Shown: piece by piece, positions 2,974 to 63,506 of the stretch
How the letters are laid out: every line of letters begins with the position of its first letter
Position numbering within the stretch: the stretch's first letter is position 1
From: Dehalococcoidia bacterium
Lineage (GTDB): Bacteria > Chloroflexota > Dehalococcoidia > Lucifugimonadales > JAGWBF01
Length of the DNA stretch: 64,000 nucleotides
Direction of reading: 5' to 3'
Assembly: GCA_965248905.1 (NCBI GenBank)
Contig: CBDFKS010000003.1
Span: 11,369 to 75,368, forward strand
Translations under genes and position numbers: made by a program
The notes under the pieces: generated by a model
Told to the model about the DNA's origin: nothing
The model's input: only the letters and a program-made list of their open reading frames with translations
Database searches by the model: none

Positions 2974-3120
2974 AGAAATTGATGCTGATGTTTGGGCTTA
3001 CGCTAGCACACGCCTATTGGGTAGTCAAGGGAGAGTGCAGGCTGTACGCTCACGTCAGCTCAGTCGTGGCCTATGCTATAATTGGCTGTGTCATATGGTC
3101 ATCGGGAGTGTCGCTCGCCC

Positions 3121-4680
3121 ATGAAAAATCGGGACCTGGAAGCAACCTGGGCATATCACGACGCCACAAAGCACTCTGTCTGGAGTATCCGCAACGACCC
3201 CCACTATTTGGATTTTGATAACCAGCCCCTCCCGTTCAAGATATACCCGGAGCTGGAGCCAATCCCTCTCCCCCACGACCGCCCAGTCTCAACAATGACG
3301 GCGCTATCCGCCATATCCACCATAACCGCTTCTGATGGGACCTGCATCCCTGACAAGACCACTCTCGCCAGCCTTCTTAACTATTCCGCAGGCATCACCA
3401 AACGGAGTACTTTTCCCGGCGGAGAGATGGTCTTTAGAGCCGCTGCATGTACGGGAGCGCTGTATCACATCGAGCTATACCTGGTTTGCGGAGACCTACC
3501 GGACTTACCGGCCGGTGTATACCACTTCGGGGTCCAAGACTTCGCCTTGCGCAAGCTGAGAGAGGGTGATTTCAGGCGCGTTCTTAGCGCCGCCAGTGGA
3601 CAGGAGCCCTCCATAGCCCACGCTCCGGCGATGATAGTGTGCACAGGCACCTATTGGCGCAACTCCTGGAAGTATCGTTCCAGGACCTATCGGCATTGCT
3701 TCTGGGATAATGGCACCATCCTGGCCAATCTGCTGGCAATCTCAACAGCCCACGCCGTCCCTGCTCGTGTTGTCATGGGCTTCGTGGATGACACTGTAAA
3801 CCGGCTGCTGGACCTGGATACCGATCGAGAAGTAGCCCTGAGCCTCGTTCCTCTGGGATACACCAGCGAAACGACCATCGGCGATGCCCCGGACGTTCGA
3901 CCCCTGAATCTAAGCACTGTCCCACTGTCCAGGACAGAAGAGGAATACCCCCTGATCGGCGCAATGCACGAAGCCTCCTCACTGACTACCGAGGAAGAAG
4001 CAAGGGTGTGGCGTGGGTCCACTCCCGCAACCTCTACAATCGAGTCTGCAAGCCTAACATTCTCTCCGCCGCCTCTTGCTAAAGAAGAAGCACCCACCGA
4101 ACCGATCGAGAAGGTCATCGTACGCCGGGGATCAAGCAGGCAGTTTCTTCGCCAGCCTATCTCTTCGGCTCAACTCATCACCATCCTTCAGCGGTCTACC
4201 CAGGGAGTCCCGGCGGATTTTCTTGAACCCGAAGGCACGATTATCAACGACCTCTATCTCATCGTGCACGCAGTCGAGGGCCTGCCTGCGGGAGCCTACC
4301 TCTATCACCGCGACGAAAACTCCCTGGAGCTTCTCAAAGAAGGCGACTTTCGCCAGATGGCAGGTCACCTAGGACTGGGCCAGGCTATCCCCGCCGACGC
4401 CAGCGCGGACGTTTTCTTTCTTGCAGACCTGAACCCACTTTTGGACCGTTATGGGAACAGGGCGTACCGGGCGACGCAGATGGAAGCGGGCATAATCGGG
4501 GGCAAGATGTATCTGGCTGCTTACGCCCAAAAGTTAGGAGCCAGCGGCCTCACATTCTTCGACGACGACGTGATCTCATTCTTCTCACCCCACGCCGAAG
4601 GAAAGAGCGTCATGTTCCTGGTGGCGCTGGGCAGACCATTACGTAAGCGAATCAGAAGGCCGGATCCTTCGTCTACTTAG
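3121..4680 (+). CDS. SagB/ThcOx-type dehydrogenase (double nitroreductase-like fold)
   Basis: It has the N-terminal W-AYHDATKHS motif typical of SagB-type dehydrogenases and a ~520-aa two-domain length. The start was chosen at ATG 3121, and TTG 3082 is also possible. Confidence 0.7.
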   Translation: MKNRDLEATWAYHDATKHSVWSIRNDPHYLDFDNQPLPFKIYPELEPIPLPHDRPVSTMTALSAISTITASDGTCIPDKTTLASLLNYSAGITKRSTFPGGEMVFRAAACTGALYHIELYLVCGDLPDLPAGVYHFGVQDFALRKLREGDFRRVLSAASGQEPSIAHAPAMIVCTGTYWRNSWKYRSRTYRHCFWDNGTILANLLAISTAHAVPARVVMGFVDDTVNRLLDLDTDREVALSLVPLGYTSETTIGDAPDVRPLNLSTVPLSRTEEEYPLIGAMHEASSLTTEEEARVWRGSTPATSTIESASLTFSPPPLAKEEAPTEPIEKVIVRRGSSRQFLRQPISSAQLITILQRSTQGVPADFLEPEGTIINDLYLIVHAVEGLPAGAYLYHRDENSLELLKEGDFRQMAGHLGLGQAIPADASADVFFLADLNPLLDRYGNRAYRATQMEAGIIGGKMYLAAYAQKLGASGLTFFDDDVISFFSPHAEGKSVMFLVALGRPLRKRIRRPDPSST

Positions 4681-4837
4681 TCAGCTTGACATCCTTTTTC
4701 ATAAATGTTACGTTCAAGTATCATTTCCCCTGAAAGAATTCCCGCATTTTGCCCCATAGCCAGGTAAAATGATCTGAGATCGAAAGGCCAGCAGAGGCTT
4801 GGCCAAACGGCCAAGACCGAGCTTGATGTGAGGGGCC

Positions 4838-6355
4838 ATGGCGGTAGATGCGAAGGCAGCTCGCTGGGCTGAGCTCAAGGAGCTTTGTGACACTCTACTG
4901 TCCGAGCGGCGCCTCATCCTCGCCAGCAACCGTGGGCCCGTTGAGCACCAGATAGCCCCCGACGGCCGAATCGACGCCAGACGTGGCAGTGGCGGCGTAG
5001 TGACCGCGCTCAGCTCGTTGGCCCAGATGGTAGAGTTCACCTGGATTGCCAGCGCCATCGGCGAGGGCGACAGGCGAGTCACTGAGAATAACCAGGGCGC
5101 CAGACTGCGCTCACCCTTACCGTCCCACAAAATCTACCTCCGCTTCGTCGTAACTCCCCGTAGGATATACCACAAATATTACAACGTCTTTTGTAATCCC
5201 CTGCTGTGGTTCCTACAGCACTACATGTGGAACTCGCCCTACAACCCAAACCTGGATGCAAACGTCCATGACGCTTGGCATGATGGCTACGTGGAAGTAA
5301 ACAAAGCATTTGCCCAGACGGTGATCGAGGAGGCCCAAGAGTGTTCCAAGCGCCCTATCATCATGGTGCATGACTATCACCTTTACCTTGCGCCGGAATT
5401 TATCAGGGAAGCACTACCCGAATCCATCATCCACCATTTCACTCACATCCCCTGGCCCGCACCCAGATACTGGCAACTTCTGCCTTCCCACTTTATAAGC
5501 AGCCTTTGCAAGGGTTTGTGCTCAGCTAATATTGTGGGATTTCAGACTCGCCACGACGTAAGGAACTTCCTGTACACCTGCGAGGAGTTTCTGCCTGAGA
5601 GTGAGATCGATTATTACAACGGGGCGGTAAAATGGGGTAGCCATACGACACTGGTGCGCGCTTATCCCATATCCATTAACGTGGAGGAGATACAGAGGAT
5701 CGCCAACTCACCCCGAGCCCTGGATTACGAGAGGAAACTGAAGTCTCTATGTAACGAGAGCACCATCATTCGGGTCGACCGGGCCGAACCCAGCAAGAAC
5801 GTTGTGCGCGGCTTTAAGGCATTCAAACTTCTGCTATCCAGGTATCCTGACTTCCAGGGTCGAGTCAACTTTTTAGCGTTCCTCGTTCCGTCCCGTACGC
5901 ATATTCGGCAGTATCAGAGGTACATGGACGAGATCCAGGAGATAATAAAGGATATAAACTCAACCTTCGGTACGGACCAGTGGCAGCCAATAACTACGTT
6001 CATCGAGAACAATTACACCCAGGCCATCGCCGGAATGAAACTCTACGATGTGATGATAGTCAACTCGGTCATCGACGGAATGAACCTGGTAGCCAAAGAG
6101 GGACCGGTGGTTAATACCAGAGGTGGCGTGCTTATTTTGTCGGAGACCACTGGCGCCTACAACCAGCTAAAGGATGGAGCGCTTTCAGTATCGCCTGCGG
6201 ACATCGAGGGCACCATGCAGGCCATGTATCAGGCGCTAACAATGAGCGCCGAGGAAAGAGAGCGTCGCTCTACCATCATGGCCGAGGTAATAGGCACGGA
6301 AGATATCACCCATTGGATTTATAGCCAGCTAGAAGACATCAAAGCTCTGGCTTAG
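4838..6355 (+). CDS. otsA: GT20 family trehalose-6-phosphate synthase-like (OtsA-like; a GgpS-like role is not excluded)
   Basis: LASNRGPVEH, VHDYHLYL, DGMNLVAKE and ILSE..GA are GT20 hallmarks. An HAD-IIB phosphatase gene lies adjacent. Confidence 0.7.
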   Translation: MAVDAKAARWAELKELCDTLLSERRLILASNRGPVEHQIAPDGRIDARRGSGGVVTALSSLAQMVEFTWIASAIGEGDRRVTENNQGARLRSPLPSHKIYLRFVVTPRRIYHKYYNVFCNPLLWFLQHYMWNSPYNPNLDANVHDAWHDGYVEVNKAFAQTVIEEAQECSKRPIIMVHDYHLYLAPEFIREALPESIIHHFTHIPWPAPRYWQLLPSHFISSLCKGLCSANIVGFQTRHDVRNFLYTCEEFLPESEIDYYNGAVKWGSHTTLVRAYPISINVEEIQRIANSPRALDYERKLKSLCNESTIIRVDRAEPSKNVVRGFKAFKLLLSRYPDFQGRVNFLAFLVPSRTHIRQYQRYMDEIQEIIKDINSTFGTDQWQPITTFIENNYTQAIAGMKLYDVMIVNSVIDGMNLVAKEGPVVNTRGGVLILSETTGAYNQLKDGALSVSPADIEGTMQAMYQALTMSAEERERRSTIMAEVIGTEDITHWIYSQLEDIKALA

Positions 6356-7212
6356 GGCATCTGGTCCACAAGCCAGCTCAGGAACCCCTCCACCTCAGAC
6401 ACGCTCGATAGCGTCAAGTCAGCCTCTTGCTCCAACTCCGGTGGGGAATCTATACCTACCACAGCGATGGACAGGCTTGCCAGGTCTTTCTGCCTGGACA
6501 GGGAAGAGGCGGCCCTGAAGGCATCTAGGTCGGTCACATCGTCTCCCATCACAATGGCCCCTGAAAGCCCGTACTCCGCGACCAAAGAAGTGAGCGCTGT
6601 TCCTTTGGTGAATTCTATGGGCGGGAGTACGTTTATAACCGTCTTGCCCATTAAAACCTTGACCTTGTCTCCCGCCAGCTCCTCAACGGCTCTCAGGACC
6701 GCGTCCCGAGCGCCATCGGGGTTTTCCGCCAGGCGATAATGGATGGCGAAGGAGCTACCTTTATCTTCGAAAAGCAGGCCTTCTGTCGTTAGTCGCTCAC
6801 TTAGTTCTATTCGTAGCTGGCCAAGCAGAGAAGAAAAGGGCCTGGACTCCTCAACGGGGCTAAGCTGTCCCTTTTCAAGACGCTCCAGGCCATGATTACC
6901 TACAATCAGCAGATCAGACATGCCTAAAATACCTTGCGCCTGGATGGCAGACCGCCCAGTGACAATAACCACCAAAGCGAACTTATGCCGTAGTTTCGTA
7001 AGCGCCGACATGATGCTCGCGCTCACAGTAGCCGCATCGGGCTCAGGCACTATCTCCGACAGAGTACCGTCCAGGTCCAAGAACAGGCCCGTAGGACCGG
7101 CTGTCAGAAGGGCGGATACATCATGTAAGTTGTCTAGCAGCGGCCCTCTAGCGATGACTTCCTCCCATTGGACTTTAGAATTAACCTGGTTTTTCTCGAC
7201 GCTAATATACAC
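6352..7212 (-). CDS. otsB: Trehalose-phosphatase-like HAD-IIB hydrolase
   Basis: LFLDLDGTLSEI (DxD motif), VTGR and MGDDVTDLDAF, adjacent to the GT20 synthase. Confidence 0.7.
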   Translation of the reverse strand: MYISVEKNQVNSKVQWEEVIARGPLLDNLHDVSALLTAGPTGLFLDLDGTLSEIVPEPDAATVSASIMSALTKLRHKFALVVIVTGRSAIQAQGILGMSDLLIVGNHGLERLEKGQLSPVEESRPFSSLLGQLRIELSERLTTEGLLFEDKGSSFAIHYRLAENPDGARDAVLRAVEELAGDKVKVLMGKTVINVLPPIEFTKGTALTSLVAEYGLSGAIVMGDDVTDLDAFRAASSLSRQKDLASLSIAVVGIDSPPELEQEADLTLSSVSEVEGFLSWLVDQMP

Positions 7213-61968: not shown

Positions 61969-62045
61969 TATCCTGGTAACAAATCCGGGTTTGGTAGAAT
62001 TAAAGTAATTATCCCTTGACATCAAGTAACATTTGTGGAAGTGAA

Positions 62046-62864
62046 ATGACCACCGAAAGACCAACTATAGGAGTCCGAGTAATTGAATCGGGACCAATGC
62101 TTATGGCCCCTGACTTTCTTAGCTCTGGTAACAATCTACTGCGCCTTCTTGGGGAAGTTGACATCGCACTCTCTCCCAGCCTGTCCCGAACCACTGATTG
62201 GTCAATATCGGAACTGTCTCGGCGCAGCCCGGCTGTTCTTGTAATCGAACCAATTGTCCGTGAAGGACATCTGGACAATAGGGACGCAATCATTGACACC
62301 GTAATGAAAGGCATTGCGACCCTCAAAGAACGGGACATTAGGCCCCGTTATTTCTCGGACCAAGCCTTGAACAGCACCAGAGAGCTTGTATCTATCCTCG
62401 GTAATCATGTGCACTCGATTGAGGTATTCACACCAAACACCCGTATAGTATGCTCTGAGACTATCGCCGCTAATGTTCGAGAGATATTACACCCTGGGCG
62501 TGAAATGGTTGGTTCGGTCGAGGGCTTGCTAGAAGCAATGAACTCCCATCGGGGGTTCACGTTCGCATTATACGAGCCGGTGCTTGCCTCAAGGATTGAC
62601 TGTCAGCTTGATTCCAGTCTTGATATAGATACTCTTGGGCATTTGAAGCAGCAAGTTTATGGCCTCTATGAACACAGAGTCCGAATTTCTGGCACACTTC
62701 GAACGAATCGCAAGGGGGAGGTTCGGTCAGCTGTTATTCGTGAGGTCGAGGCACTTCGGACAGGAGCCCAGTTTACGGACGCAAGGGTTTTCTCTGGCAT
62801 TTTTGATATCACTGGCGGATTAGATGCTTCCGAGTATGTGAGGAGAATGAGGGATGCCAGATAA
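62046..62864 (+). CDS. Uncharacterised 272-aa protein, upstream partner of the PIN gene
   Basis: ATG at 62046 after ggaag (TTG 62016 is an alternative). No recognised motif. It overlaps the next gene by 11 nt. Confidence 0.6.
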   Translation: MTTERPTIGVRVIESGPMLMAPDFLSSGNNLLRLLGEVDIALSPSLSRTTDWSISELSRRSPAVLVIEPIVREGHLDNRDAIIDTVMKGIATLKERDIRPRYFSDQALNSTRELVSILGNHVHSIEVFTPNTRIVCSETIAANVREILHPGREMVGSVEGLLEAMNSHRGFTFALYEPVLASRIDCQLDSSLDIDTLGHLKQQVYGLYEHRVRISGTLRTNRKGEVRSAVIREVEALRTGAQFTDARVFSGIFDITGGLDASEYVRRMRDAR

Positions 62865-63390
62865 GCTCAATAGATGGTACATGGGGTCTGACACCTGGAT
62901 TTCTCTAATCTCAAACCTCGATACAGCAGAGGCGATAGACCGGCGTTCTAATCTTGAATACTTCCTTCAGGAAGCCATGAATGGAACGGCCCAGCTCTTT
63001 GTTTCAACAGCAACCATCGTGGAGGTAGTGCGAACGGAATCTGTCGGGCTTCCCACTGCACAAGTACCCATAGAGGTACGGCAAAAGATTGCCGACCTCT
63101 TTGAAGAACCGTATATCACGCCAATACCGCTAGACCCTGCTAGGGCAGTAGAAGCTAGGGAGTTGAGGTGGCAGCATTCTTGGCTCAAGACGATGGATGC
63201 CATAGAACTCGCCGGTGCGCTCTATGCCAGGGTGGATATCATGTACACTTATGATGGCTCTGGTGGGAAACGGGGCCTTATTAACCTAGACGGGCTTGTT
63301 GGAACTCCACCTTTGCGAATTATGATGCCTAAATACGTAGGAGGGATACAATCAACCTACTTGCAAAGTCCTTCCAACCACGATGCTTGA
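62854..63390 (+). CDS. PIN-domain nuclease-like protein (VapC-like fold prediction)
   Basis: Acidic residues sit at the expected PIN positions: D13 (YMGSDTWI), E57 (TIVEV), D124 (TMDAIELAGA) and D142 (MYTYD). Confidence 0.6.
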   Translation: MPDKLNRWYMGSDTWISLISNLDTAEAIDRRSNLEYFLQEAMNGTAQLFVSTATIVEVVRTESVGLPTAQVPIEVRQKIADLFEEPYITPIPLDPARAVEARELRWQHSWLKTMDAIELAGALYARVDIMYTYDGSGGKRGLINLDGLVGTPPLRIMMPKYVGGIQSTYLQSPSNHDA

Positions 63391-63506
63391 TGCTGTGGGA
63401 TAATTGCCACAATAAATGATGCCTATGCTGACCTGGCAGATAACTCACAGGGCTTTAGAAAGGTCTTGTGCCCAGTTACCTCAGGTGGAGAGTTGAAGAG
63501 ACATAA

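What the first reader, a model, noticed from the sequence alone, without database searches (positions are those of the whole stretch)
61969..63390. AT-richer two-gene cassette pairing an uncharacterised 272-aa protein with an overlapping PIN-domain nuclease (atypical toxin-antitoxin or defence candidate)
Five 60-nt lines counted by hand inside 62041-62940 gave 43-48% GC. Sampled lines elsewhere gave about 55-62%. The block sits between a glycosylation operon and an unrelated gene, which looks like horizontal acquisition. The downstream 178-aa protein has acidic residues spaced as in PIN nucleases: D13 in GSDTWI, E57 in TIVEV, D124 in MDAIELAGA and D142 in TYD. Its start overlaps the upstream gene by 11 nt (62854-62864), implying coupled expression as in VapBC loci. 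The upstream protein, however, is 272 aa with no HTH, RHH or AbrB motif I can see, three to four times the size of a normal VapB antitoxin. It seems to contain internally repeated ..V.G.L...........F.L......I.C.. segments. A large sensor/antitoxin-like partner with a PIN effector is the architecture of several recently described anti-phage systems, and I cannot match this pair to a named one.
Basis: partly seen in the sequence, partly recalled or inferred. Interest (0 to 1): 0.65.

Follow-up and report, generated by a model that had tools for sequence, protein, structure and literature searches.

The report
Stripped transposon carrying PIN nuclease pair
The AT-richer two-gene block is the transposase-less remnant of an IS1595-type jumping gene whose cargo is a VapC-like PIN nuclease strictly paired with an uncharacterised 272-aa OB-fold protein, most likely a new kind of toxin-antitoxin or defence pair that is widespread but has never been studied.

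Summary
Both genes are real: A at 62046-62864 (272 aa) and a PIN gene at 62854-63390 (178 aa), overlapping by 11 nt. GC is 0.50 against a genome mean of 0.556. The 178-aa protein passes Pfam's PIN cut-off, and its model matches VapC toxins. The 272-aa protein hits nothing in Pfam, NCBIfam, PADLOC, PHROGs or PDB sequences. Its model (pLDDT 86) shows an N-terminal alpha/beta region, an OB fold of the tRNA-anticodon-binding type and a conserved C-terminal tail. It belongs to a large unannotated family of about 3,300 clusters at 50% identity.

The pairing is nearly obligate. 51 of 53 foreign loci with A have this PIN directly downstream. All 34 strong PIN matches in 301 Chloroflexota genomes sit beside an A gene.

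Relatives carry the same ends with the transposase still present, one with a perfect 8-bp target duplication. The window therefore holds a stripped transporter-IS inserted into a glycosylation cluster.

A toxin-antitoxin function is inferred, not shown. The internal repeats were not confirmed, and the first catalytic Asp is displaced by two residues. Earlier notes of this scan describe the same cargo on IS1595 elements in at least eight other genomes.

The parts
61996..62003 (.). Left flanking 8 bp, AGAATTAA: a likely decayed target-site duplication
   Evidence: It matches the right flank ACAATAAA at 6 of 8 positions. Intact relatives show 8-bp duplications: L056 CTTGAGTC 8/8 and L004 TTGTCTAA/TTGCCTAA 7/8.
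62004..62026 (+). Left terminal inverted repeat (IRL) of an IS1595-family element, aGTAATTATCCCTTGACATCAAG. It contains the TTGACA (62017-62022) that serves as the -35 box of the transposase promoter in intact relatives.
   Evidence: Window 62006-62028 is identical over 23 nt to the IRL of L004 (4883-4905), and 62005-62026 is identical over 22 nt to the IRL of L056. The coding DNA is only about 65% identical.
62046..62864 (+). Gene A: a 272-aa protein of an unannotated family. It has an N-terminal alpha/beta region (about 8-148), an OB-fold barrel (about 150-236), a disordered linker (240-254) and a conserved C-terminal helix/tail (GIFDITGGLDAxEYxRRMRDA).
   Evidence: 33 homologues; alignment; AF2, pLDDT 85.8. 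Foldseek hits to the LysRS anticodon-binding OB domain, E about 6e-4; 3,325 representative clusters; no curated family or PDB sequence match.
62854..63390 (+). Gene B: a 178-aa VapC-like PIN-domain nuclease. Acidic residues are D13 (displaced; the canonical position is G11), E57, D115 and D134. Its stop codon lies inside the right inverted repeat.
   Evidence: PF01850, 26.2 bits; invariant residues; AF2, pLDDT 63.7. VapC structures are the top hits; the profile hits K. pneumoniae VapC 7BY2 at E 1e-4; position of the first Asp.
63386..63408 (-). Right terminal inverted repeat (IRR), CTTGATGCTGTGGGATAATTGCC. It is 17/23 complementary to the IRL and overlaps the PIN stop codon TGA (63388-63390).
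   Evidence: An IRR sits in the same position over the PIN stop codon in L001 and L004, and just downstream of it in L003 and L056. 4 of 500 shuffles reach 17/23.
63409..63416 (.). Right flanking 8 bp, ACAATAAA: a likely decayed target-site duplication
   Evidence: 6/8 identical to 61996-62003.

Best explanation
Window 62004-63408 is a 1,405-bp non-autonomous remnant of an IS1595-family transporter-IS (an IS with passenger genes). It keeps both terminal inverted repeats and the two passenger genes, but it has lost the transposase gene and the transposase-cargo spacer. It inserted into an AT-rich 8-bp site inside a cell-envelope glycosylation cluster.

The cargo is a strictly coupled, translationally overlapping gene pair. 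The downstream gene encodes a VapC-like PIN ribonuclease, the probable toxin or effector. The upstream gene encodes a 272-aa protein of a large uncharacterised family.

The most likely mode of action is a type II toxin-antitoxin-like module. The 272-aa protein would bind and silence the PIN nuclease, probably through its conserved, intrinsically disordered and helical Arg-containing C-terminal tail. This tail occupies the position that the toxin-binding segment has in VapB antitoxins. Its OB-fold and N-terminal domains would replace the usual small DNA-binding domain and provide nucleic-acid binding, for autoregulation or for sensing a trigger. On the transposon the pair would act as an addiction, stabilisation or defence cargo.

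Shown: the genes, PIN membership, the predicted OB fold, the near-obligate pairing, the patchy mobile distribution and the IS ends. Inferred: toxicity, neutralisation, the role of the tail and any benefit to the transposon.
For: PIN identity:
- Pfam PF01850 scores above its cut-off.
- The model's best PDB matches are VapC toxins from VapBC complexes.
- A family profile hits K. pneumoniae VapC.
- E57 and D115 are invariant and D134 nearly so.

Partner:
- The AF2 model is confident, with a beta1-beta2-beta3-alpha-beta4-beta5 barrel at 150-236 that matches the LysRS anticodon-binding OB domain and an engineered OBody.
- Three family members give weak PF01336 hits.
- The tail (residues about 251-271) has low pLDDT yet is among the best-conserved segments.

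Pairing:
- A is followed by an overlapping or abutting PIN gene on the same strand in 51 of 53 foreign loci. This holds down to 22-24% identity and in Chloroflexota, Microcystis, Sedimentisphaerales and an unclassified bacterium.
- All 34 PIN matches with E<=1e-20 in 301 Chloroflexota genomes lie next to an A gene. A clear score gap separates them from ordinary VapCs.
- Gene order (partner first), overlap and a Shine-Dalgarno inside gene A fit type II TA operons.

Decay pattern:
- The PIN gene is truncated, interrupted, frameshifted or absent beside an intact A in five loci: L003, L009, L032, L045 and L033. The reverse was seen once, in L061.

Mobility:
- A is present in 37 of 301 Chloroflexota genomes, 21 of 121 genomes of the same order and 3 of 201 cyanobacterial genomes.
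- The flanking genes differ from locus to locus.

IS context:
- The IRL is identical to that of intact elements L004 and L056. An IRR overlaps the PIN stop codon in L001 and L004, as in the window, and lies just downstream of it in L003 and L056.
- L056 has a perfect 8-bp target duplication. Its transposase carries DDE_Tnp_IS1595 plus Zn_ribbon_IS1595 domains.

Precedent:
- tIS are recognised for the IS1595 family (10.1101/2021.05.26.445724).
- TA pairs, including PIN toxins, are integral passengers of Tn3-family transposons (PMC7157771).
Against: - No experiment or complex model shows that PIN is toxic or that A neutralises it.
- A has none of the DNA-binding folds of known VapB antitoxins and is three to four times larger.
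- In this clade the canonical first catalytic Asp is Gly (G11), with an Asp two residues later (D13). Catalytic competence is therefore uncertain, and the PIN model is only moderately confident (pLDDT 63.7).
- The decay asymmetry (5 against 1) is small and the loci are not phylogenetically independent.
- A validated two-gene PIN system, DS-5, has a partner that is required for defence and is not an antitoxin (PMC13092281). The same architecture can therefore work differently.
- In the window, the native -10 box and the transposase-cargo spacer are deleted, and no promoter-like site precedes gene A. Expression here may depend on read-through from the upstream operon.
- The window's IRs are imperfect (17/23) and the target duplication is only 6/8.
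Confidence: 0.6

Rival explanations
1. The pair is a two-component nuclease or defence system rather than a toxin-antitoxin pair. The OB-fold protein would be a required sensor, activator or substrate-targeting subunit, for example binding phage or foreign single-stranded nucleic acid or a specific tRNA. It would recruit or license the PIN nuclease, and PIN alone would be inactive or harmless.
For: - The partner is large and multi-domain, with a nucleic-acid-binding-type OB fold instead of a transcription-factor fold.
- Full-length Foldseek matches (E 3e-10 to 9e-9) include three phage or prophage proteins, one annotated DUF6575. DUF6575 is a domain found in an experimentally selected E. coli defence system (PMC9519451).
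- DS-5 is a validated PIN plus partner system in which the partner is needed for defence and its loss is not toxic (PMC13092281).
- Some relatives sit beside a PLD/restriction-like gene and prophage genes, a DNA methylase, or an integrase (L004, L015, L017).
- One locus has a nonsense codon in A with PIN intact.
Against: - Neither protein hits PADLOC. There is no sequence similarity to DUF6575 or DUF5830 at E<=5.
- The window copy lies in a glycosylation cluster, not a defence island.
- The gene order, the overlap and the conserved disordered C-terminal tail next to the PIN start are the classical antitoxin-toxin layout.
- Loss or damage of PIN with A retained is more frequent than the reverse (5 against 1).
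- TM-scores of the viral matches are low (0.40).
Confidence: 0.25
2. In this genome the block is an inert relic. The transposon lost its transposase and promoter, and the PIN active site has drifted (G11 at the canonical Asp position). On this reading the pair no longer does anything and is simply decaying.
For: - The transposase and the native -10 box are deleted, the IRs have diverged (17/23) and the target duplication is degraded (6/8).
- There is no promoter-like site upstream.
- The first Asp is displaced.
Against: - Both ORFs are intact and full length.
- D13, E57 and D115 are invariant in all 19 members of the close clade, including the window's own protein, at a mean column identity of 72%. 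One member (P0053) has both D11 and D13, which suggests a conserved relocated residue rather than decay.
- The Shine-Dalgarno and the overlap are preserved.
- No terminator separates the pair from the same-strand upstream operon, so read-through transcription is plausible.
Confidence: 0.1
3. A and PIN are accessory factors of IS1595 transposition itself, for example processing or protecting transposition intermediates or regulating the transposase. On this reading they are not a selfish or defensive cargo.
For: - An IS1595 transposase lies directly upstream on the same strand in six loci from two phyla. In L015 its stop overlaps the start of A.
- In several copies a conserved hairpin motif lies between the transposase gene and A.
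Against: - Most A-PIN loci (at least 40 of 53) have no transposase nearby.
- Nearly identical transposases carry very different A-PIN versions. L004 and L056 have transposases 70% identical, but their A proteins are 25% and their PINs 28% identical. Pairwise identities show no correlation.
- Other members of the same IS lineage, including two copies in this genome, carry an unrelated passenger. The pair is therefore exchangeable cargo.
Confidence: 0.05

Closest known systems
VapBC type II toxin-antitoxin systems (e.g. Shigella/F-plasmid VapBC, Rickettsia felis VapBC2, M. tuberculosis VapBC15/20, K. pneumoniae VapBC 7BY2)
   Same: - The downstream gene is a VapC-like PIN domain (Pfam PF01850, with VapC structures as the best fold matches).
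- The partner is encoded upstream with an overlapping stop and start.
- The distribution is patchy and mobile.
- The partner ends in a conserved, predicted-disordered, Arg-containing tail, where VapB carries its toxin-binding segment.
   Different: - The partner is 272 aa, not 70-90 aa.
- It has no RHH, AbrB, HTH or Phd DNA-binding domain. It has an alpha/beta region plus an OB fold, and it belongs to no curated family.
- The PIN is longer, with an insertion after the Glu helix and a C-terminal extension.
- In this clade the first catalytic Asp is shifted by two residues.
- Toxicity and neutralisation are untested.
Transporter IS (tIS) of the IS1595 family, and transposase-less derivatives akin to mobile insertion cassettes
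   Same: - Terminal inverted repeats identical to those of transposase-bearing relatives.
- 8-bp target duplications in the relatives.
- Passenger genes lie between the ends.
- tIS are described as restricted to the IS1595 and IS66 families (10.1101/2021.05.26.445724).
   Different: - The window copy has no DDE_Tnp_IS1595 transposase, so it is not an autonomous IS.
- Its IRs have diverged (17/23) and its target duplication is degraded.
- I found no paper that describes this particular cargo, an OB-fold protein plus PIN.
Toxin-antitoxin passengers of Tn3-family transposons (Lima-Mendez et al. 2020, PMC7157771)
   Same: TA pairs, including PIN and PIN_3 toxins, are carried inside a transposon and have been acquired repeatedly and independently. 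Here too, near-identical transposases carry divergent A-PIN versions.
   Different: The transposon family differs (a DDE IS1595 tIS, with no resolvase or res site). The antitoxins there are classical RHH, AbrB or Phd proteins, not this family.
DS-5 of DefensePredictor (PIN nuclease plus DUF5830/AcrIF4-like partner; PMC13092281)
   Same: A two-gene system with a PIN effector and a larger non-transcription-factor partner, found outside defence islands.
   Different: There is no sequence similarity of A to DUF5830. DS-5's partner is reported not to be an antitoxin. Gene order and the partner's fold were not compared.

Membership tests
PIN domain / VapC-like nuclease (Pfam PF01850) | Scores above the Pfam gathering threshold | tested here: met
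   26.2 bits against a cut-off of 23.6 for P0002. PINs partnered with distant A homologues score 33-55 bits.
PIN domain / VapC-like nuclease (Pfam PF01850) | Alpha/beta/alpha PIN fold | tested here: met
   The best Foldseek PDB matches are AF1683, Shigella VapC, Rickettsia VapC2 and Mtb VapC20 and VapC15 (E 7e-4 to 5e-3, TM about 0.45-0.6 on the target). The model confidence is only moderate, pLDDT 63.7.
PIN domain / VapC-like nuclease (Pfam PF01850) | Four conserved acidic active-site residues at the canonical positions | tested here: inconclusive
   E57, D115 and D134 align with the family's conserved acidic columns. The first Asp (YWD in most partners) is G11 here, and an invariant Asp lies two residues later at D13.
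Type II toxin-antitoxin system, VapBC type | Partner gene immediately upstream, co-oriented and translationally coupled | tested here: met
   An 11-nt overlap in the window. The genes overlap or abut in 51 of 53 foreign loci.
Type II toxin-antitoxin system, VapBC type | Small antitoxin with an N-terminal DNA-binding domain (RHH, AbrB, HTH or Phd) | tested here: not met
   The partner is 272 aa and has no Pfam, NCBIfam or PADLOC hit. The model shows an alpha/beta region plus an OB fold.
Type II toxin-antitoxin system, VapBC type | The toxin arrests growth and the antitoxin neutralises it by direct binding | not testable with these tools
   This needs expression and rescue assays or a complex structure.
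IS1595-family transporter IS (tIS) | DDE_Tnp_IS1595 transposase with an N-terminal zinc ribbon between the ends | tested here: not met
   It is absent from 62004-63408, where only 19 nt separate the IRL from gene A. It is present in the relatives L056, L004, L003, L015, L028 and L035.
IS1595-family transporter IS (tIS) | Terminal inverted repeats of the lineage at both ends | tested here: met
   The IRL is 23/23 identical to L004's and 22/22 to L056's. An IRR overlaps the PIN stop codon, as in L001 and L004 (just downstream of it in L003 and L056). The window's own IRL and IRR are 17/23 complementary.
IS1595-family transporter IS (tIS) | 8-bp target-site duplication | tested here: inconclusive
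   The window has AGAATTAA and ACAATAAA (6/8). L056 is 8/8 and L004 is 7/8.
Known anti-phage defence systems (PADLOC-DB v2) | Either protein matches a model of a known or candidate system | tested here: not met
   No families at E<=1 for either protein.
OB-fold, tRNA_anti-codon type (PF01336) | Five-stranded barrel with a helix between strands 3 and 4; sequence match to the family | tested here: inconclusive
   At fold level the feature is met. The DSSP order is b-b-b-a-b-b at 150-236, and about 100 residues align to LysRS N-terminal domains and an OBody (E 6e-4 to 3e-3). At sequence level only 3 of 53 family members hit PF01336, at E>=0.083.

The most novel reading that the evidence does not exclude
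The OB-fold protein and its dedicated PIN nuclease may form a new class of mobile, nucleic-acid-sensing effector module rather than a passive antitoxin-toxin pair. The OB domain would recognise a specific single-stranded nucleic acid or tRNA-like ligand, such as a phage product, a foreign element or a stress signal. It would then release or direct the PIN nuclease. IS1595 transposons would repeatedly capture different versions of the module because it protects or stabilises the DNA they land in. If so, this is an unstudied immune or addiction system with thousands of family members that spreads as transposon cargo.
Probability: 0.25. Interest if true: 0.75.

Novelty: new variant of a known kind. 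Interest (0 to 1): 0.5.

Why it matters
VapC/PIN toxins are the largest toxin family in prokaryotes, and their partners are thought to be small transcription-factor-like antitoxins. This report describes a large family of about 3,300 clusters at 50% identity. It is annotated everywhere as a hypothetical protein and has no Pfam, NCBIfam, PADLOC or PHROG model. It is an almost obligate partner of a distinct PIN subfamily and has a nucleic-acid-binding OB fold.

If it proves to be an antitoxin, it is a new antitoxin architecture. If it proves to be a sensor, it is a new two-gene nuclease system. Its repeated capture by IS1595 transporter-IS elements extends the link between transposons and TA modules, known for Tn3, to a much simpler class of element. 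That link also explains how such pairs end up inside housekeeping operons.

Cultured Microcystis aeruginosa strains (PCC 7806, NIES-298) carry a PIN of the same 90% cluster as the one paired with A in Microcystis MAGs; the full pair was not checked in those strains.

Tried and rejected
Rejected.
- Curated families for A: Pfam, NCBIfam, PADLOC and PHROGs on the window protein and on 10-53 distant relatives gave only sub-threshold noise.
- PDB sequence profiles A1 and A3 found nothing.
- tblastn of three family members against PLSDB plasmids, and of one (the window's A) against INPHARED phages, gave no match.
- The promoter and terminator scan and the repeat search of the two intergenic stretches found nothing convincing with default settings. 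The IRs emerged only by comparison with transposase-bearing relatives.
- Empty-site comparison: no relative is close enough at the DNA level. The one family-level genome with the downstream 346-aa gene has different upstream genes.
- Co-diversification of transposase and cargo: none was found. Spearman rho was about 0 and the cargo is exchanged. This rejects a single ancient capture and argues against a transposition-accessory role.
- Decay asymmetry as a test of which gene is the toxin: 5 against 1, suggestive only.
No read-level test of expression or of presence/absence polymorphism was possible.
Full report
**What is in the sequence.** Two same-strand ORFs occupy the block. Gene A runs from 62046 to 62864 (272 aa from ATG). 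Gene B runs from 62854 to 63390 (178 aa). They overlap by 11 nt, and a GAGGAG sits 8 nt before the second ATG. A TTG at 62016 would extend A by ten codons, but it lies inside the inverted repeat described below, and homologues start at the ATG.

The pair has GC 0.497 and GC3 0.48/0.49. The genome's sliding-window mean at this size is 0.556 (sd 0.030). Only 1.8% of genome windows are as low, and the neighbouring genes have GC3 0.58-0.68. The composition claim is therefore correct, though the deviation is moderate (z about -2).

**Gene B is a PIN/VapC-type protein.** It passes Pfam's PF01850 cut-off (26.2 against 23.6 bits). Its AlphaFold model is only moderately confident (pLDDT 63.7). Even so, its best PDB matches are VapC toxins: AF1683, Shigella VapC, Rickettsia VapC2, and Mtb VapC20 and VapC15. 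A profile of the wider subfamily hits K. pneumoniae VapC 7BY2.

The invariant acidic residues are E57, D115 (not D124) and D134 (not D142; Asn in two relatives). When partners of distant A homologues are aligned, the canonical first Asp lies in a YWD(S/A) motif. There this clade has G11, and its invariant D13 lies two residues later. One clade member (P0053) has both. This looks like a relocated catalytic residue, but activity is untested.

**Gene A is a member of a large, unannotated family.**
- It matches nothing in Pfam, NCBIfam, PADLOC or PHROGs. PDB sequence profiles also found nothing.
- A word-indexed search found 33 homologues, and the only name any of them carries is 'hypothetical protein' from a Chloroflexi MAG.
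- A profile search of 1.84 billion representatives found 3,325 clusters at E<=1e-3 and 1,962 at E<=1e-10. Almost all are about 260 aa long and match over the full length.
- Ten distant members scanned individually and all 53 members of a diverse alignment still hit no curated family.
- Public records call them 'hypothetical protein' and call the neighbouring gene a VapC family toxin or PIN domain protein.

The AlphaFold model is good (pLDDT 85.8, pTM 0.67). It shows four parts:
- an N-terminal alpha/beta region (strand 8-14, helix 21-42, hairpin 50-71, helix 79-95, then helix-strand-strand-helix to 148);
- a five-stranded barrel with a helix between strands 3 and 4 (150-236);
- a disordered stretch (240-254);
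- a terminal helix (261-270).

Foldseek against the PDB returns the N-terminal anticodon-binding OB domain of lysyl-tRNA synthetases and an engineered OBody (E 6e-4 to 3e-3 over about 100 residues). Three family members give weak PF01336 hits.

It occurs once, and profile comparison of the sub-domains shows no internal repeat.

The tail (GIFDITGGLDAxEYxRRMRDA) has low confidence in the model but is among the best-conserved segments. R269 is nearly invariant across the wide family. No conserved Asp, Glu, His, Ser or Lys set suggests catalysis.

Against viral predicted structures, three phage or prophage proteins match over the full length (E 3e-10 to 9e-9, TM 0.40). One is annotated DUF6575, a domain reported in an experimentally selected E. 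coli defence system (PMC9519451). No sequence similarity to that domain was detectable.

**The pairing is nearly obligate.** In 51 of 53 foreign loci holding an A homologue, a PIN gene of the same subfamily follows immediately on the same strand, overlapping or abutting. These loci come from metagenome contigs, named MAGs of Chloroflexota, Microcystis and Sedimentisphaerales, and 301 plus 121 sampled genomes. The pairing holds down to 22-24% identity in A.

I then searched the same 301 Chloroflexota genomes with a PIN profile. All 34 matches with E<=1e-20 lie next to an A match. Ordinary VapCs start at E 5e-19. No orphan PIN of this subfamily was seen.

The exceptions are informative but few:
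- PIN is N-terminally truncated (L003), interrupted (L009), frameshifted (L032) or absent (L045, L033) beside an intact A.
- In one locus (L061) A has TGG to TGA at the invariant Trp while PIN is intact.

Five against one leans towards PIN being the dispensable or harmful partner, but it is not decisive.

The distribution is patchy: 37 of 301 Chloroflexota genomes, 21 of 121 in the same order and 3 of 201 cyanobacteria. The own genome has a single copy. Flanking genes differ from locus to locus.

**The pair is transposon cargo.** In six loci from two phyla, an IS1595-family transposase lies directly upstream of A on the same strand (L003, L004, L015, L028, L035, L056), with a remnant in L001. 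Pfam confirms DDE_Tnp_IS1595 plus Zn_ribbon_IS1595.

| Locus | Structure | Target duplication |
|---|---|---|
| L056 | 23-nt IRs (GGTAATTATCCCTTGACATCAAG, 22/23 complementary) enclose transposase, A and PIN | perfect 8 bp, CTTGAGTC |
| L004 | same structure | 7/8 |
| Window | same IRL at 62004-62026, no transposase | 6/8 (below) |

Window 62006-62028 is 23/23 identical to L004's IRL, although the coding DNA is only about 65% identical. A diverged IRR lies at 63386-63408. It overlaps the PIN stop codon, as in L001 and L004; in L003 and L056 the IRR begins a few to about 50 nt after the stop. The two window IRs are 17/23 complementary, a level reached by 4 of 500 shuffles. The flanking octamers AGAATTAA and ACAATAAA match at 6 of 8 positions.

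In L004 and L056 the IRL carries a TTGACA, with a TAYTCT box 17 nt downstream, followed by the transposase gene. In the window only 19 nt separate the IRL from the start codon of A. The -10 box, the transposase gene and the spacer are gone.

The block is therefore a 1,405-bp stripped transporter-IS. Downstream of it the glycosylation cluster continues with LPG_synthase_TM and a PMT_2 glycosyltransferase. The element sits inside that cluster, not at its edge. No terminator-like site separates it from the upstream same-strand operon, and no promoter-like site precedes A.

The genome also holds two copies of a 1,956-bp relative elsewhere. They have related IRs, a transposase 55% identical to L004's, and a different 329-aa passenger.

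Transposases that are 70% identical (L004, L056) carry A proteins only 25% identical. Pairwise identities of transposase and cargo are uncorrelated. The cargo has therefore been exchanged or captured repeatedly.

**Comparison with what is known.**
- tIS are described as restricted to the IS1595 and IS66 families (10.1101/2021.05.26.445724).
- TA pairs, including PIN toxins with classical antitoxins, are integral passengers of Tn3-family transposons (PMC7157771).
- The PIN superfamily survey noted canonical-PIN subfamilies with non-transcription-factor neighbours and unknown function (PMC5499597). I could not tell whether this subfamily is one of them.
- I found no paper describing an OB-fold partner of a PIN toxin.
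- DS-5 is a validated PIN plus partner defence system that is not a TA (PMC13092281). It is the main reason to keep the sensor/activator rival alive.

**Earlier notes of this scan.** After I had found the IS ends, a look-up showed that the scan has described the same cargo on IS1595 elements in at least eight other genomes. One of those is a stripped copy inside another operon. These are unreviewed AI notes. They agree with my reading and were not used as evidence.

**Verdict.**
- The TA/defence reading is plausible but unproven.
- The key addition is that the block is a transposase-less IS1595 tIS carrying a widespread, uncharacterised OB-fold-protein/PIN module.
- I rate it a new variant of a known kind, of moderate interest.

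Noticed in passing
Own genome outside the window: G000 C7:955383-957338 and C7:1989358-1991313: Two copies of a 1,956-bp IS1595-family transporter-IS, nearly identical to each other. Their IRs are GGTGACTATCCCTTTACATCAGG. Each carries a 285-aa transposase and, on the opposite strand, a 329-aa passenger with no Pfam hit. Copy 2 has an 8-bp duplication, ATATATTA. They might mobilise the stripped A-PIN element in trans.
   Followed up: partly
L003, L004, L055, L056 and L001, about 20-70 nt upstream of gene A: A conserved spacer motif with a perfect short hairpin (CTGCAACCCC ... GGGGTTGCAG) lies just before the ribosome-binding site of A in transposase-bearing copies. It is deleted in the window. 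It may be an operator, an RNA structure or a transposase-cargo boundary signal.
   Followed up: no
L059 (G116:C1:542500-557500) and L060 (G179:C6:2147000-2156000): In one high-GC Chloroflexota genus, stand-alone 124-144-aa proteins occur that consist only of the OB fold plus tail of A. In L059, and for the second copy in L060, each is followed by a 140-aa retropepsin-like aspartic protease ORF (DTGSS motif); in L060 the first copy is instead preceded by a 168-aa one. They lie in repeated segments near a full A-PIN pair.
   Followed up: no
L061 (G246:C1:155800-158400): An A gene carries TGG to TGA at the family's invariant Trp (W52 equivalent) while the downstream PIN is intact. This is the only case found of a damaged partner with an intact nuclease.
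   Followed up: partly
L004 versus L056: The transposases are 70% identical and the IRLs nearly identical. The A proteins are only 25% identical and the PINs 28%. The same IS lineage has therefore swapped or recaptured different versions of the module.
   Followed up: yes
L049:5276-5683 and 5765-6412 (G000 C3, about 5 kb beyond the window end): A DUF3179 protein is split into two consecutive ORFs, covering profile positions 1-64 and 94-292. This is a possible frameshifted or interrupted gene.
   Followed up: no
L015 (Sedimentisphaerales MAG) 3015-6577; L004 3182-4105 and 7965-10870: Some relatives of the element sit beside a DNA methyltransferase (L015). Another sits beside a PLD/restriction-like gene and a prophage-like repressor/AlpA region (L004). 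These settings are defence-like or mobile, and the window copy lacks them.
   Followed up: no
L033 (G192:C345): An intact short-tailed A homologue has no PIN downstream and lies next to a ParM-like actin ORF. This suggests a plasmid context.
   Followed up: no
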